Source: Escherichia phage phiWec188. Taken from it: a stretch of DNA of 64,000 bases. The notes below the pieces were generated by a model. The model had not been told where the DNA came from. It saw only the letters and a list, made by a program, of their open reading frames with translations, and did not search any database. The stretch lies in the sequence record LC739537.1; one strand, given 5' to 3'. This document shows, one piece after another, positions 44,800-49,501 of this stretch. Made by a program: the position numbers and the translations under genes. How positions within the stretch are numbered: the first letter of the stretch is position 1; every line of letters starts with the position of its first letter.

Positions 44800-44822
44800 A
44801 TGAAAAAGGGGCCGAAGCCCCT
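44800..44822 (-). terminator. intrinsic terminator (GGGGC-UUCG-GCCCC + U-run)
   Basis: immediately after tape-measure stop. Confidence 0.55.
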
Positions 44823-44827
44823 TTCTT

Positions 44828-46783
44828 TTAGTTGCTGTTTGACTGTCCACTTAACGTCTGCAAAGTCAGGCTTTGCATGAACGATTCAGAAGAAGCTTTA
44901 GCATTGAAGTCAATGTAATCGGAAAGACGAGAAACATCGCTTTGTAATGTCAAGGCAACTTCCGGTGTCAACGTAATGTTGAAGGTCGGGTTTGTCTGGT
45001 ACTGCATAGCTTTAGACTGGAAATTCTGTGCGTCTTGACGAATAGATTCTCCGGTAAACGTATAATTGTTTGCCGCAGATCCTGATCCATCCTTCTCAAA
45101 ATATCCCACAACCTTATCCCAAATAGAAACACCCTCGTCATTCTTAGAAGTGAGTCCATCTGAAACCGCCGCAAAAGGGTTAAAGGTTCTGTTCGCCATA
45201 TCCCACACACTGGCATCCTTTCCTGTAGCTGCATAAATGAAACCGAAGTTCTCACGCATGAAGCTATCCAACCCTGTAAAGATGTTCAGGAACATGGTTG
45301 CAGTTTTGGCTGTGTTGACAGTTAACTTACCCATCTCTTCACCCAAATCTTTCGCTACCTTATCCAACATTTTTACGTTGTCCAACCAGGACTCGTCTTT
45401 AGGTATTGCGTTCATAAATCCTTCCAGGAAATAGTTCTGCATACCTTGCCCGACCAAGCCCACCGTGGCAGTCAAGCGTGTGTACTCTTTAGAAGCTTCC
45501 ATTTGCTCATTGGTCAATGCAGCGCCAGTACGTTGAAGCATACGGAGGGTTTCTTGGAAGCCTTCTCCGTTCTTACTAAACATACGTTGGTAATGCATGA
45601 GGTCGTCCCCAAGGTTCTCAAGAAGACGACCAATCTGTGCCGAGTTCATGCCACGACGCTCGCCTTCATTCACAGTTGCCTGGATGAAAGCTAATGGATC
45701 GTTCTGCATATGTTTAATTTGTGAAGGGTTCCAGCCGAACATGTTCATGATATCATTGATACCATTATCACCGCCACGCCAGCGACCTTTCTTTTCGTCC
45801 CATTCAGCAGCCATCATCGAGTTACCCAAACGTTCACGAACGTCTTTAAGGTTATCGATTGACTTAATAATGTTTGCCGAGTCAACACCGTTTTGTTCAC
45901 CCCAAGCAGTCATTGTCATAATGGCGTTGGCGTTTGCCTGAACGTTCTCTGCACCACGACCTATGAACTTGATACGATCGTTAGCAGTTTGTAACGTATT
46001 ACCTACAACAGAGCCACCTGCAAACAATCCTGCACCAATCATGGAGGAAACCATCATGCGAGGATTAAGGCCCAAAGCGCCATCTCTCATTTGCGAGTAT
46101 TGACGATCTTTATCTCGGCGTTGCTGTGCCAGTTCACGTTTATGGTTACGTTCAATATCACGTAGCTCTTTATCACGCATACGTTGACGTTGTTTGGCTT
46201 CTGCTTCCAGTTCACGACGAACTCGACGACGACCACGTACTTCATCTTCGATATCTTTTACTTTCTCTCGGTGAGATCGACGAAGATTATCAAGCTGGTG
46301 GGCCAGTGTCTGGTTCATACGTTGAAGAGTGATATCACCGCGTTTGTACGATTCTACAGACGCATCCATGATTTGTTTGGCTTGACGTTGCGCATCTATG
46401 GAAGCTTTGGTATACTGCATACCCCGCTTTTCAAAGTTCTCCATACGGAGATTGCCTAAATCATTACGACGAGCCTGTAGCTCGGCAGCGCGTTCTTCTG
46501 GAGTTTTCTTTCCTGGTTTAGCTGGACGACCAGGACCGGAGGTAGTTCCACCACCTTTTGGAGTAGGAGGGGGAGCAGGGCGAGCAGGGAAAGTCTGCGC
46601 TTTACGCATTTCTCTTTCGATCTCTTTCATCTGCTGCCTAAACTTACTCATGTTTAAGGTGGGCTGTATTCTTTCAGCGAACTTTTTAACACTCTCTACA
46701 GAATCTTTGGCTTCTTTGAGACTGTTCTTGTCCACCTTAAATGTGACTACGTTACTGATTTTAGCCGCGTTTATATCTAACAA
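44828..46783 (-). CDS. tail tape measure protein
   Basis: 651 aa, helical, Arg/Glu-rich coiled-coil centre; follows chaperone pair. Confidence 0.65.
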   Translation of the reverse strand: MLDINAAKISNVVTFKVDKNSLKEAKDSVESVKKFAERIQPTLNMSKFRQQMKEIEREMRKAQTFPARPAPPPTPKGGGTTSGPGRPAKPGKKTPEERAAELQARRNDLGNLRMENFEKRGMQYTKASIDAQRQAKQIMDASVESYKRGDITLQRMNQTLAHQLDNLRRSHREKVKDIEDEVRGRRRVRRELEAEAKQRQRMRDKELRDIERNHKRELAQQRRDKDRQYSQMRDGALGLNPRMMVSSMIGAGLFAGGSVVGNTLQTANDRIKFIGRGAENVQANANAIMTMTAWGEQNGVDSANIIKSIDNLKDVRERLGNSMMAAEWDEKKGRWRGGDNGINDIMNMFGWNPSQIKHMQNDPLAFIQATVNEGERRGMNSAQIGRLLENLGDDLMHYQRMFSKNGEGFQETLRMLQRTGAALTNEQMEASKEYTRLTATVGLVGQGMQNYFLEGFMNAIPKDESWLDNVKMLDKVAKDLGEEMGKLTVNTAKTATMFLNIFTGLDSFMRENFGFIYAATGKDASVWDMANRTFNPFAAVSDGLTSKNDEGVSIWDKVVGYFEKDGSGSAANNYTFTGESIRQDAQNFQSKAMQYQTNPTFNITLTPEVALTLQSDVSRLSDYIDFNAKASSESFMQSLTLQTLSGQSNSN

Positions 46784-46798
46784 AGTATTTTCCTCATG

Positions 46799-47047
46799 TT
46801 AGTGGATCATTTTCTTAAACATGTCTTGCATTTGAGTAGCGTTCTCTTGTTGCTTTCTCTTTATTGAAGTGTCTTTGGTGTACAGAGCTTCAATATATTC
46901 CTCATAAGTGAGGTACTCGTACATCCCCAATAGATAATCCACCCCGTATTGATCCAGGGTGGAGCGTGTTTCCGAGGTATTCTTCACGACCTTGCAGAGA
47001 ATGATCTCATACCACTTCAACGTAAGGGTCTTCTCTGCTGTTTCCAT
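46799..47047 (-). CDS. tail assembly chaperone, -1 frame extension (GT-like); probably expressed mainly as frameshift fusion
   Basis: open in -1 frame from slippery site 47131-47140 through 46799. Confidence 0.5.
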   Translation of the reverse strand: METAEKTLTLKWYEIILCKVVKNTSETRSTLDQYGVDYLLGMYEYLTYEEYIEALYTKDTSIKRKQQENATQMQDMFKKMIH

Positions 47048-47067
47048 CGCATGACGAATGGCTGGGC

Positions 47068-47550
47068 TTAGTTCGTTGCCAGATCCTGAACTGCTTGGAA
47101 CTGGGTCAACAGTTTTCCGAAACCTCGTTTGAAAAAAGGGCCGTAGTTCACCTCAAGAACTTTTGCTGTCAAGTCGAGGACAAGTTCTGGGTGAGCAAAG
47201 AAGAGTTCGTCGAAGTTATCAGATACGTTGTGACCTGCTTCGGTATATACTTCATCTAAGATCTTACGGAGGAACACAGTAAGGTTCTTCTCTTCAAGAC
47301 CAGAGAACAATTGAATAAGTGCCATTGCAATACGAGATTCCAGATCTTCTTCAGCCGACATAAGGGCAGTATTGTACATGGTCATAGGTACAGCTAAAAC
47401 GCTACCGAGTTCTGGGATACGCTCGAAGACCTTTGAAGGACTCCATTTCAGAATACGGAAGGTTACAAAACGGGTTTCATCCAAATAGATTTTTACAATT
47501 TCTTCTGGACGTGCATATTGTTTGATAGTATCATCTTGTTGTTCGGACAT
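47068..47550 (-). CDS. tail assembly chaperone (G-like)
   Basis: between tube and tape measure genes; acidic. Confidence 0.55.
   Translation of the reverse strand: MSEQQDDTIKQYARPEEIVKIYLDETRFVTFRILKWSPSKVFERIPELGSVLAVPMTMYNTALMSAEEDLESRIAMALIQLFSGLEEKNLTVFLRKILDEVYTEAGHNVSDNFDELFFAHPELVLDLTAKVLEVNYGPFFKRGFGKLLTQFQAVQDLATN
47131..47140 (-). other. slippery sequence CCCUUUUUUC for programmed -1 frameshift
   Basis: in-frame C.CCU.UUU / U.UUU.UUC heptamers; -1 frame stays open into the downstream ORF. Confidence 0.5.
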
Positions 47551-47569: not shown

Positions 47570-47595
47570 TAAATAAAAAGGGCATTTCTGCCCTT
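47570..47595 (-). terminator. intrinsic terminator (AGGGCA-GAAA-UGCCCU + U-run)
   Basis: after tail tube stop. Confidence 0.5.
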
Positions 47596-47601
47596 TCGTT
47601 A

Positions 47602-48081
47602 TTATTGAATGGTCAGTGCGGAGATAGAGTTAAGAACACTCATACCTACACCAACTTCATTACGTAACAGGCTTGCATCTTTCAGACCGATAACCCACTG
47701 GTTCTCTGTAATCATTTCGCCCATAGTGTCTTCAGGTTGAGATTGAATCCAACCAATGGTGCTAATGTAGTAACCACGAGGATCTTCCAGATAAACGCTG
47801 AATGCTACTTGACGAGTAGAATACATTGTTTGAGCATAAGTTGCCAAAACTTCGTTTGCCGGAGATGTACGTTGCAGAGAAATAGTCATGGTGCCGAGAC
47901 GGTTACGGCTAAGAGCCAGAGAAACATCGCCATCAGTACCAGCATATGGGTTAATAATATCGTTGGCTTTTGCGATTACAATTTTAGTGTCGGTTGCAAA
48001 ACCCCACGGCTCCCATCCACCCAGGGACAGAACGATTTGGGAAGGATCATAGGCCATTACGCCAGTAAGCATTTTATCCAA
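47602..48081 (-). CDS. tail tube protein
   Basis: 159 aa immediately downstream of sheath gene. Confidence 0.55.
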   Translation of the reverse strand: MDKMLTGVMAYDPSQIVLSLGGWEPWGFATDTKIVIAKANDIINPYAGTDGDVSLALSRNRLGTMTISLQRTSPANEVLATYAQTMYSTRQVAFSVYLEDPRGYYISTIGWIQSQPEDTMGEMITENQWVIGLKDASLLRNEVGVGMSVLNSISALTIQ

Positions 48082-48127: not shown

Positions 48128-49501
48128 TTAGTTTGCAGTACGGTTGGTCAGGACGTGAACCTGAACCTTAACGTAATGGAAGAATCCTGCGTAAACGTAT
48201 TCAATCTTCATGCCGTCAACCAGACGCTGATTAATCTGCGAATCAGTCATGTCAGCACGAGAAGGAAGGTAAACGATAGGCTTCAGGTCAACACGCAGTC
48301 CAGTTTCTTCTGAAACAACCACTTCGTTAGAAATAGAGCCATTCAGAATACCAACTTGGATCGGGTTAGCCAGAACCGCTTGTTTAATCAGAGCCAGACC
48401 ATTGGAAGTAGCACGAACACCACCACCCAACATTGACTGCTGTTTGAACAGAGTGAACAGAGATTCTTCGGTACGAGCTTTGAACCACAGAGCGTGAACT
48501 ACGTAGTCAGCAAAGAAACCGTTAACCATCAGACCATCGCGGTAGAACAGAGTTGCGTGTTCTTTACGGTAGATGTTACCATTCTGTTGAACAATGTTAT
48601 TTTCCGCAGTCTGACCGAGTTTCTCGATTTCAACTCCAACCAGAGTTTTACCATGCAGAGTCGTAGTACCAGGCTGTGCAGAGCAGATAGAACCAACAAC
48701 AGCAGCTTCTGGGAATACAGAGTCTGCGTCGCTCATCCACAGAGCAAAACAGGTGTTGACATAGCCAAGGTCATTTAAACGCTCAAGAACGTTGTCTTCG
48801 GCTTTAGTAGTGATACCAACGTCTGAACTGGAGAAGAAGTATACTTTATCATTCTCTTCTACCCAAGCAGCTACATCGAGAATATCTTCAACAGCGTGGG
48901 AGTCAGACAGAACCCAGAACCAGCTACTATCGATATCATGCAGTGCAGCGATATCTTCAGTAATGTCGTTAGCGTATACGGTTTCTTTAGCGAAGCCGCT
49001 TGCATCCAGAGAAGCGTATTTGCCTACAACTGGAGAAACAGTGATCACAGCGCCATCGTTAGCAACGGTGAACAGACCACCATAAACTACGTCTGCATTG
49101 ATCATTTCTGTCAGACCAACAACGATTTCTTGTGCTGTTGCAGTGTCGTCAGCAATGAATTTGAAATCTTTCTTGTTCTTGCCTTCTTTGATAGTGATAA
49201 CATATGTTGCACTATCTTCAACTGCTGGGGTCAGGGTAAAGTTTGTTACTTCACGCTTACCAACAATCACTTGACTTGGTGCAAATAATCCGTTAAACAG
49301 TTTAACTGCCATGATATAGGCTGGATCATTAACACCGTAACCCGCTTCCAGAAGTGCGTCAGAAGAGGTGTAATATTCAATCGCGTTACCAGTGACAGTC
49401 TGACCAGTAAGGATCAGGGGAATGTCAAACTGGGTTTCACGGATTGATGTAGCTCCGTACAGTAAAGTTACGGTTGCTACCTTTTCACGAAAAGTTGCCA
49501 T
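48128..49501 (-). CDS. contractile tail sheath protein
   Basis: 457 aa, position upstream of tube/chaperones/tape measure. Confidence 0.65.
   Translation of the reverse strand: MATFREKVATVTLLYGATSIRETQFDIPLILTGQTVTGNAIEYYTSSDALLEAGYGVNDPAYIMAVKLFNGLFAPSQVIVGKREVTNFTLTPAVEDSATYVITIKEGKNKKDFKFIADDTATAQEIVVGLTEMINADVVYGGLFTVANDGAVITVSPVVGKYASLDASGFAKETVYANDITEDIAALHDIDSSWFWVLSDSHAVEDILDVAAWVEENDKVYFFSSSDVGITTKAEDNVLERLNDLGYVNTCFALWMSDADSVFPEAAVVGSICSAQPGTTTLHGKTLVGVEIEKLGQTAENNIVQQNGNIYRKEHATLFYRDGLMVNGFFADYVVHALWFKARTEESLFTLFKQQSMLGGGVRATSNGLALIKQAVLANPIQVGILNGSISNEVVVSEETGLRVDLKPIVYLPSRADMTDSQINQRLVDGMKIEYVYAGFFHYVKVQVHVLTNRTAN

What the first reader, a model, noticed from the sequence alone, without database searches (positions are those of the whole stretch)
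46799..47550. Programmed -1 frameshift between the two tail assembly chaperone ORFs
Upstream of the stop of the G-like chaperone ORF there is a CCCUUUUUUC run whose in-frame heptamers (C.CCU.UUU and U.UUU.UUC) are classic slippery sites. The -1 frame is open from that point through the downstream 82-aa ORF, which would give the conserved G/GT-type chaperone fusion found between tube and tape measure genes in many tailed phages.
Basis: partly seen in the sequence, partly recalled or inferred. Interest (0 to 1): 0.4.

Follow-up and report, generated by a model that had tools for sequence, protein, structure and literature searches.

The report
Tail chaperone -1 frameshift site
This E. coli phage almost certainly makes a long and a short form of its tail assembly chaperone by letting a few ribosomes slip back one base on a run of U's, a well-known phage trick that has not been annotated in this phage group.

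Summary
The window is Escherichia phage phiWec190 (Phapecoctavirus). On the minus strand, between the tube gene and the tape measure gene, lie a 160-aa tail assembly chaperone (Pfam Phage_TAC_15) and an 82-aa ORF in its -1 frame. The run CCCUUUUUUC (47140..47131) contains two heptamers that are in frame with the chaperone, C_CCU_UUU and U_UUU_UUC. The -1 frame is open from 47152 to 46799.

- All 55 related loci examined, with chaperone identity down to 27%, keep U_UUU_UUC in frame and keep the -1 frame open for 108-149 codons.
- The codon before the two Phe codons is Pro, Cys or Ser but always ends in T.
- The downstream ATG has no Shine-Dalgarno sequence, and its position is not conserved.
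- No in-frame fusion homologue was found.
- No conserved stimulatory RNA structure was found.

The predicted product is a 250-aa G-T fusion with junction ...NYGPFF/QTRFRK.... The conserved slip site is U_UUU_UUC. C_CCU_UUU is found only in the Stephanstirmvirinae-type loci.

This is a new, unannotated member of the lambda G/GT class. A similar signal was proposed in 2025 for sister families. Ribosomal slippage and RNA polymerase slippage cannot be told apart from sequence. The finding is ordinary but sound.

The parts
47602..48081 (-). Tail tube gene (159 aa), immediately upstream of the chaperone
   Evidence: phrog_280 at 7.6e-35 and PF11681. The sheath gene lies upstream at 48128..49501 (phrog_205).
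47577..47596 (-). Terminator-like GC hairpin followed by a T run, between the tube gene and the chaperone gene
   Evidence: Read from the sequence. One search lists the hairpin. phAPEC8 annotates a terminator at the homologous place.
47068..47550 (-). G-like tail assembly chaperone ORF (160 aa, about 18.4 kDa); 0 frame
   Evidence: PF21822 Phage_TAC_15 at 4.3e-23 and phrog_3840 at 4.2e-51. Strong Shine-Dalgarno sequence, dG -7.8.
47149..47154 (-). Shine-Dalgarno-like GAGGUG, 11 nt upstream of U_UUU_UUC; possible but unproven stimulator
   Evidence: Sequence. Present in Escherichia-phage relatives but replaced by GAAGU, GAGAU or AAGAU in many others.
47131..47140 (-). Slippery run CCCUUUUUUC, made of the overlapping heptamers C_CCU_UUU (47140..47134) and U_UUU_UUC (47137..47131) in the G frame
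   Evidence: U_UUU_UUC is invariant in 55 of 55 loci. The codons are always NNT TTT TTC in 39 unique sequences, whereas other Phe codons split 84 TTC to 75 TTT.
47118..47124 (-). Conserved GGUUUCG. It encodes G-F-G in the 0 frame and R-F-R in the -1 frame. Most likely a dual-coding constraint, not an RNA structure
   Evidence: Alignments. RFR is kept when the 0 frame changes to G-L (APECc02 and L054). RNAalifold finds 0 pairs.
46799..47152 (-). Open -1 frame (117 codons plus stop). From 47131 onward it encodes the 110-aa T extension of the fusion
   Evidence: The AF2 model has a disordered linker at residues 1-21 and a helical domain at 23-109, mean pLDDT 68.8.
46799..47047 (-). The '82-aa ORF' as called by gene finders. 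It is the 3' part of the -1 frame, not an independent gene
   Evidence: phrog_16039. The ATG at 47047 has no Shine-Dalgarno sequence, dG +1.2 against a gene median of -7.0. The Met column is M/I/L/S in relatives.
44828..46783 (-). Tape measure protein gene (651 aa), immediately downstream
   Evidence: phrog_16051 at 3e-254. A terminator-like hairpin follows at 44803..44826.

Best explanation
This is a programmed -1 ribosomal frameshift of the lambda G/GT type.

**Normal decoding.** Most ribosomes translating the chaperone mRNA terminate at 47068 and make the 160-aa chaperone G.

**The slip (inferred).** A minority of ribosomes carry tRNA-Phe in both the P site (UUU) and the A site (UUC) of U_UUU_UUC. 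These slip back one base, re-pair with UUU UUU, and continue in the -1 frame. In this lineage the slip can also occur one codon earlier, on C_CCU_UUU.

**The product.** The result is a 250-aa, roughly 29-kDa fusion: G residues 1-140, then QTRFRK, a Ser/Gly-rich linker, and a helical domain of about 85 aa.

**Function (inferred).** By analogy with lambda, G and the G part of GT coat the tape measure protein. The T domain recruits the tube protein. The fixed low GT:G ratio is set by the slip frequency.

**What is shown and what is inferred.** Shown are the sequence anatomy, its conservation, the lack of an independent start, and family membership of G. Inferred are that the slip happens on the ribosome, its frequency, and the roles of G and T.
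For: - **Anatomy and position.** The site lies between the tube and tape measure genes.
- **Uniqueness in the window.** These are the only 2 of 67 in-frame heptamers followed by a long -1 ORF.
- **Breadth of conservation.** The loci are from Stephanstirmvirinae, Vequintavirinae and metagenomes, with G identity of 27-99%.
- **Nucleotide-level selection.** The codon before Phe-Phe is CCT, TGT or TCT, three different amino acids, all ending in T. Phe-Phe is always TTT TTC, although Phe codons elsewhere split 84 TTC to 75 TTT.
- **-1 frame protein conservation.** It starts right after the slip (RFR) and continues across the G stop and upstream of the Met.
- **No independent start.** The ATG at 47047 has no Shine-Dalgarno sequence. 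Start positions are not conserved; in Ro1 and L025 the first start after the G stop is at extension codon 80-84. Database gene calls for the small ORF vary from 67 to 85 aa or are missing altogether.
- **Motif efficiency.** H_HH.U_UU.Y heptamers, a class that includes both motifs here, are among the most efficient -1 motifs in E. coli (PMC4066793).
- **Sister families.** They were proposed to use a -1 frameshift at a GTTTTT motif in the same gene (PMC12846349).
Against: - There is no experimental evidence for the fusion protein in this phage or its relatives.
- No conserved downstream stem-loop or pseudoknot was found: MFE z-scores are near zero and RNAalifold finds 0 pairs.
- The upstream Shine-Dalgarno-like GAGGUG is only partly conserved, so efficiency may be low.
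- The same protein would result from insertion of one U by RNA polymerase.
- None of the 16 GenBank records inspected annotates a joined CDS.
Confidence: 0.85

Rival explanations
1. **Transcriptional slippage.** RNA polymerase occasionally inserts one extra U while copying the T6 run. Standard translation of that mRNA subset then gives the identical G-T fusion (...GPFFQTR...).
For: The conserved element is a homopolymer run, and a run alone cannot distinguish polymerase slippage from ribosome slippage. No conserved ribosomal stimulator was found. A +1 U mRNA gives exactly the same protein (derived).
Against: Per the review, bacterial transcriptional slippage occurs on runs of 9 A or T (PMC5009743). 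This run is only 6 and is never longer in 55 loci; the following base is always C. The run is always phased as a perfect X_XXY_YYZ heptamer of a class that is efficient in E. coli.
Confidence: 0.08
2. **Independent gene.** The 82-aa ORF is translated from its own ATG at 47047, either by de novo initiation or by termination-reinitiation after the G stop 20 nt upstream. The slippery run would be coincidental.
For: An ATG exists 20 nt after the G stop. GenBank records annotate a separate small CDS.
Against: - There is no Shine-Dalgarno sequence: dG +1.2, weaker than 96% of ORFs and than 90% of random positions.
- The Met is replaced by I, L or S in relatives, and the first available starts fall deep inside the conserved domain in several phages.
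- The -1 frame stays open and conserved for 20-35 codons upstream of the G stop in all 55 loci.
- Synonymous sites of the heptamer are invariant.
Confidence: 0.05
3. **Chance.** A fortuitous U run and a fortuitously open non-coding frame, with no second product.
For: None beyond the absence of experimental data.
Against: The arrangement is conserved in 55 of 55 loci down to 27% identity. There is protein-level conservation in the -1 frame. The site is unique among the 67 heptamers in the window.
Confidence: 0.01

Closest known systems
Phage lambda gpG/gpGT -1 programmed frameshift and the conserved tail-chaperone frameshift of dsDNA phages (Levin 1993; Xu, Hendrix & Duda 2004; as summarised in PMC5009743)
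   Same: Two overlapping ORFs lie between the major tail or tube gene and the tape measure gene. [quoted passage not shown] The second ORF is in the -1 frame without its own start. The result is one short abundant product and one long rare product sharing an N-terminal domain.
   Different: - The heptamer is U_UUU_UUC (plus C_CCU_UUU), not lambda's G_GGA_AAG (from memory).
- The phage is a 150-kb contractile-tailed virulent phage.
- The chaperone belongs to Pfam Phage_TAC_15.
- The T domain has no detectable similarity to anything outside its own family.
-1 frameshift proposed at a conserved GTTTTT motif in the TAC gene of Vandenendeviridae (Pakpunavirus and relatives) and Andersonviridae (PMC12846349, Dec 2025)
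   Same: Both involve related myovirus lineages with the same gene order. A U-run slip site lies at the 3' end of TAC-N. The -1 frame is uninterrupted through an ORF annotated as 'hypothetical' or as intergenic. The evidence is of the same comparative type.
   Different: In the passages retrieved here, that paper analysed Vandenendeviridae and Andersonviridae, not the TAC locus of Stephanstirmvirinae or Vequintavirinae. In Stephanstirmvirinae-type loci the run is preceded by CCC rather than G, so a second overlapping heptamer is present.
Phage T7 gene 10A/10B frameshift (G_GUU_UUC)
   Same: An E. coli phage with the same A-site slip, UUC to UUU by tRNA-Phe, and a low-level -1 shift (PMC5009743).
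   Different: T7 affects the capsid protein. Its P-site codon GUU re-pairs imperfectly, whereas here the P site re-pairs perfectly (UUU to UUU).
T4-like phages' tail assembly chaperones (Vladimirov, Gautam & Davidson 2022, as described in PMC10274946)
   Same: Contractile-tailed virulent phages that need both a short and a long chaperone form.
   Different: T4-like phages are reported to carry separate genes for the short form and for the long fused form. Here no homologue of about 250 aa exists among 187 database hits, and the long form can arise only by recoding.

Membership tests
Lambda G/GT-type tail assembly chaperone -1 frameshift | Pair of ORFs located between the major tail or tube gene and the tape measure gene | tested here: met
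   The order is sheath, tube, G, small ORF, tape measure on the minus strand.
Lambda G/GT-type tail assembly chaperone -1 frameshift | [quoted passage not shown] | tested here: met
   C_CCU_UUU and U_UUU_UUC lie at 47140..47131, 60-63 nt before the G stop. The -1 frame is open from 47152.
Lambda G/GT-type tail assembly chaperone -1 frameshift | Second ORF lacks its own functional, conserved translation start | tested here: met
   Shine-Dalgarno dG is +1.2 against a gene median of -7.0. The start position is not conserved.
Lambda G/GT-type tail assembly chaperone -1 frameshift | Slip site and frame relationship conserved among diverged relatives | tested here: met
   55 of 55 loci, G identity 27-99%.
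Lambda G/GT-type tail assembly chaperone -1 frameshift | Fusion protein actually made at a few per cent of G, and both forms needed for tail assembly but absent from virions | not testable with these tools
   Requires mass spectrometry, a reporter assay and genetics. No proteomic report was found.
Pfam PF21822 Phage_TAC_15 (tail assembly chaperone) | Score above the gathering threshold over most of the model | tested here: met
   82.7 bits against a cut-off of 22; model positions 4-123 of 127.
dnaX-type stimulated -1 frameshift (upstream Shine-Dalgarno-like element plus downstream stem-loop) | Conserved downstream stem-loop 5-9 nt after the heptamer | tested here: not met
   MFE z-scores range from -0.7 to +1.8. 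RNAalifold gives 0 pairs for 20 sequences.
dnaX-type stimulated -1 frameshift (upstream Shine-Dalgarno-like element plus downstream stem-loop) | Shine-Dalgarno-like element about 10-14 nt upstream of the heptamer | tested here: inconclusive
   GAGGUG lies 11 nt upstream in phiWec190 and in many coliphage relatives, but is absent in the Certrevirus, Ro1 and KP13-16 types. The optimal spacing is recalled from memory.
Programmed transcriptional slippage | Homopolymer run long enough for RNA polymerase slippage (about 9 A or T in bacteria) | tested here: not met
   The run is T6 and is never longer in 55 loci. The criterion is from PMC5009743.
T4-like arrangement (separate genes for short and long chaperone) | A separately encoded in-frame long form exists | tested here: not met
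   All 187 homologues found are 127-175 aa; none covers both G and T.

The most novel reading that the evidence does not exclude
The invariant block just 3' of the slip site acts in cis to stimulate frameshifting, either as RNA or as nascent peptide, and replaces the missing stem-loop. The block is GGUUUCG, read as R-F-R in the -1 frame, and R-F-R is kept even when the 0-frame residues change. In addition, the overlapping double heptamer CCCUUUUUUC of the Stephanstirmvirinae-type loci tunes the GT:G ratio upward relative to the single heptamer of Vequintavirinae.
Probability: 0.1. Interest if true: 0.45.

Novelty: new member of a known kind. Interest (0 to 1): 0.25.

Why it matters
- **Annotation.** The tblastn search matched 358 phage records with this chaperone, and none of the 16 inspected annotates a joined CDS. 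In those the locus is a chaperone followed either by a 'hypothetical protein' of arbitrary length or by an empty gap.
- **Engineering.** Many of these phages are therapy or biocontrol candidates, and synonymous recoding of the U run would probably break tail assembly.
- **Evolution.** The conservation of the chaperone frameshift now extends to two more myovirus subfamilies. This links it to the signal recently proposed for Vandenendeviridae and Andersonviridae, and suggests a U-run slip site inherited from their common ancestor.
- **Biology.** It adds no new principle.

Tried and rejected
- **Downstream stimulatory RNA.** I folded 60 nt after the heptamer in 28 unique sequences. Z-scores were near zero or positive and RNAalifold found no consensus pairs. 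Small hairpins of 3-5 bp around GGUUUCG can be drawn by eye, but they differ between lineages. Rejected as evidence.
- **Structure of the fusion.** The single-sequence AF2 model of the 250-aa fusion was unusable, pLDDT 40.5.
- **Fold of the T domain.** Foldseek against BFVD and PDB returned only members of its own family and insignificant helical matches. Sequence searches of PDB found nothing for G or T.
- **Literature.** I searched for a prior description of this frameshift in phAPEC8, rV5, phi92, phiTE or CB7. None was found in the held library. Vladimirov et al. 2022 is not held.
- **In-frame or annotated fusions.** I searched protein databases for them and found none.
- **+1 frame.** Considered and rejected: it is closed within 6-63 codons in all loci.

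Full report
**Identity of the window.** The 921 bases around the finding are 100% identical to Escherichia phage phiWec190 (LC739539.1). This is a 150.7-kb Phapecoctavirus of the subfamily Stephanstirmvirinae. The region is about 75% identical to phAPEC8-like phages. All relevant genes lie on the minus strand.

**Checking the observation.** ORF listing and direct translation give the following gene order:

| Gene | Coordinates (minus strand) | Size | Evidence |
|---|---|---|---|
| Sheath | 49501..48128 | 457 aa | phrog_205 |
| Tube | 48081..47602 | 159 aa | phrog_280, PF11681 |
| Chaperone G | 47550..47068 | 160 aa | PF21822 Phage_TAC_15, 82.7 bits against cut-off 22; phrog_3840, 4e-51 |
| Small ORF | 47047..46799 | 82 aa | phrog_16039, unknown function |
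| Tape measure | 46783..44828 | 651 aa | phrog_16051 |

The run cccttttttc lies at 47140..47131. In the chaperone frame the codons are GGC CCT TTT TTC AAA. So C_CCU_UUU (47140..47134) and U_UUU_UUC (47137..47131) are both genuine X_XXY_YYZ heptamers.

The -1 frame has a TGA at 47155..47153. It is then open for 117 codons to the stop of the 82-aa ORF at 46799.

**Is it more than chance?** I selected 79 long, non-overlapping ORFs in the window, about 20,000 codons in total. They contain 67 in-frame XXXYYYZ heptamers. The two heptamers in the chaperone gene are the only ones followed by a long -1 frame: 110-111 codons, reaching 269 nt past the 0-frame stop. The runner-up has 39 codons and stays inside its own gene.

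**Comparative evidence.** This is the strongest evidence. I collected the homologous locus from three sources:
- 16 GenBank phages spanning Stephanstirmvirinae and Vequintavirinae. They include phAPEC8, ukendt, phi92, KP13-16, rV5-like APECc02, 4MG, Ro1, CR8, phiTE and Erwinia pEp_SNUABM_01.
- 33 IMG/VR contigs.
- 6 metagenomic contigs chosen to fill identity gaps or to carry unusual residues.

Chaperone identity to phiWec190 ranges from 99% down to 27%.

In all 55 loci, T_TTT_TTC is present in the chaperone frame at the homologous Phe-Phe. The -1 frame is open from just upstream of it through the downstream ORF, for 108-149 codons. The +1 frame closes within 6-63 codons.

C_CCU_UUU is present only in the Stephanstirmvirinae-type loci. 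Vequintavirinae have TGT or TCT before the run.

The conservation operates at the nucleotide level:
- In 39 unique sequences the three codons are always NNT TTT TTC. The other Phe codons in the same genes split 84 TTC to 75 TTT.
- The preceding residue is Pro (CCT), Cys (TGT) or Ser (TCT). These are three different amino acids whose codon always ends in T.
- All 133 G-like database proteins carry N-Y-x-(C/P/S)-F-F.

**The downstream ORF is not an independent gene.**
- Its ATG at 47047 has no Shine-Dalgarno complementarity. The duplex energy with the anti-SD is +1.2 kcal/mol, against a median of -7.0 for the window's ORFs. That is weaker than 96% of those ORFs and than 90% of random positions.
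- In the alignment of -1-frame translations the Met column reads M, I, L or S.
- Conserved protein sequence starts before that column (...LSPAI.HA...).
- The first possible start after the chaperone stop varies widely. In Ro1 and L025 it falls at extension codon 80-84, deep inside the conserved domain.
- Gene callers behave accordingly. The small ORF is annotated at lengths from 43 to 85 aa or not called at all.
- No record inspected carries a joined CDS.
- No homologue of about 250 aa exists among 187 database hits. So neither natural in-frame fusions nor separately encoded long forms occur.

**The predicted product.** Slipping at either heptamer, or inserting one U in the mRNA, gives the same 250-aa, 29.0-kDa protein. 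It consists of G residues 1-140 (...KVLEVNYGPFF) followed by QTRFRKTVDPVPSSSGSGNELSPAIRHAMETAEK...MIH.

The extension has three parts:
- A nearly invariant R-F-R just after the shift.
- A Gly/Ser/Pro-rich linker of variable length.
- A conserved helical domain of about 85 residues.

The AF2 model, built with an 11-sequence alignment, shows residues 1-21 disordered and four helices at 23-109, with mean pLDDT 68.8.

R-F-R is kept even where the 0-frame G-F-G changes to G-L (APECc02 and L054). This argues that the -1 frame is read from the slip site onward. The one exception is L051, which has R-F-Q.

**Mechanism.**
- tRNA-Phe decodes both UUU and UUC, so on U_UUU_UUC both P- and A-site tRNAs re-pair perfectly in the -1 frame.
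- In E. coli, H_HH.U_UU.Y heptamers are among the most efficient -1 motifs. Both U_UU.U_UU.C and C_CC.U_UU.U gave more than 0.1% shifting without any stimulator (PMC4066793).
- I found no conserved downstream structure. MFE z-scores of the 60 nt after the site range from -0.7 to +1.8, and RNAalifold predicts no pairs.
- The conserved GGUUUCG is best explained by dual coding.
- A Shine-Dalgarno-like GAGGUG lies 11 nt upstream in phiWec190 and many coliphage relatives, but not in Certrevirus, Ro1 or KP13-16. It may boost the shift locally, but it is not a family feature.
- The functional roles of G and GT are inferred from lambda (PMC5009743). In lambda, G and the G part of GT coat the tape measure, T recruits the tube protein, and the ratio is about 30:1.

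**Rival explanations.**
- *Transcriptional slippage* would give the same protein and cannot be excluded from sequence. However, bacterial examples use runs of about 9 A or T. Here the run is six and is never extended.
- *Independent initiation or reinitiation* at 47047 is contradicted by the start-codon and Shine-Dalgarno data.
- *Chance* is excluded by the conservation.

**Relation to what is known.** This is the conserved tail-chaperone frameshift of Xu, Hendrix and Duda (2004).

A December 2025 paper (PMC12846349) proposed, from the same kind of evidence, a -1 frameshift at a GTTTTT motif in the chaperone genes of Vandenendeviridae and Andersonviridae. It showed that these families are related to Vequintavirinae and Stephanstirmvirinae. 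In the passages retrieved here, it did not analyse the chaperone locus of those two subfamilies.

I found no mention of the frameshift in the papers on rV5, phiTE or CB7, and the search combining 'phAPEC8' with 'frameshift' returned only an unrelated paper.

T4-like phages reportedly solve the same problem with separate genes (PMC10274946). That is not the case here.

**Verdict.** The finding is real and correctly interpreted. It is a new, so far unannotated member of a well-known class. It is useful for annotation and phage engineering but not surprising.

Noticed in passing
window 47577..47596 and 44803..44826 (minus strand): GC-rich hairpins followed by T runs sit just after the tube gene and just after the tape measure gene. 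They would make chaperone plus tape measure a separately attenuated transcription unit downstream of the abundant sheath and tube genes. phAPEC8 annotates a terminator at the first position.
   Followed up: partly
L002 (OR584014.1) and several MG0656xx records: 'Pseudomonas phage PsgM04F' is 97% identical to this coliphage across the locus. More than 20 records named 'Campylobacter phage' carry chaperone loci matching those of E. coli phages. The host labels look doubtful, possibly from contaminating coliphages.
   Followed up: no
window 60836..63288 (minus strand): A cluster of 11 phage-encoded tRNA genes: Met x2, Ile, Pro(UGG), Gln, Gly, Thr, Tyr, Ser x2, Arg. There is no tRNA-Phe, so the slip-site Phe codons are read by host tRNA-Phe. 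The phage tRNA-Pro(UGG) could read the CCU of the first heptamer.
   Followed up: no
window 47118..47124; alignment: An R-F-R motif encoded in the -1 frame right after the slip site is kept in 54 of 55 loci, even when the overlapping 0-frame residues change. Its role is unknown; it could be tape measure or tube binding, or an effect on the frameshift itself.
   Followed up: partly
window 46783 (tape measure start); L002 1470: The tape measure start is annotated inconsistently. phiWec190 uses the TTG at 46783, which has a GAGGA Shine-Dalgarno sequence. The 97%-identical PsgM04F record starts the gene about 130 nt further downstream.
   Followed up: no
window 35766 (minus strand): An in-frame U_UUA_AAC heptamer lies 12 codons before the stop of a 688-aa ORF. 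Its -1 frame stays open for 30 codons, reaching 62 nt past the stop. This is probably chance, but it is the only other heptamer in the window whose -1 frame passes the 0-frame stop.
   Followed up: no
window 44695 and 50615 (minus strand): The longest-ORF TTG starts of the 244-aa and 149-aa ORFs have no Shine-Dalgarno sequence (dG -0.6 and +1.9). The true starts are probably further downstream.
   Followed up: no
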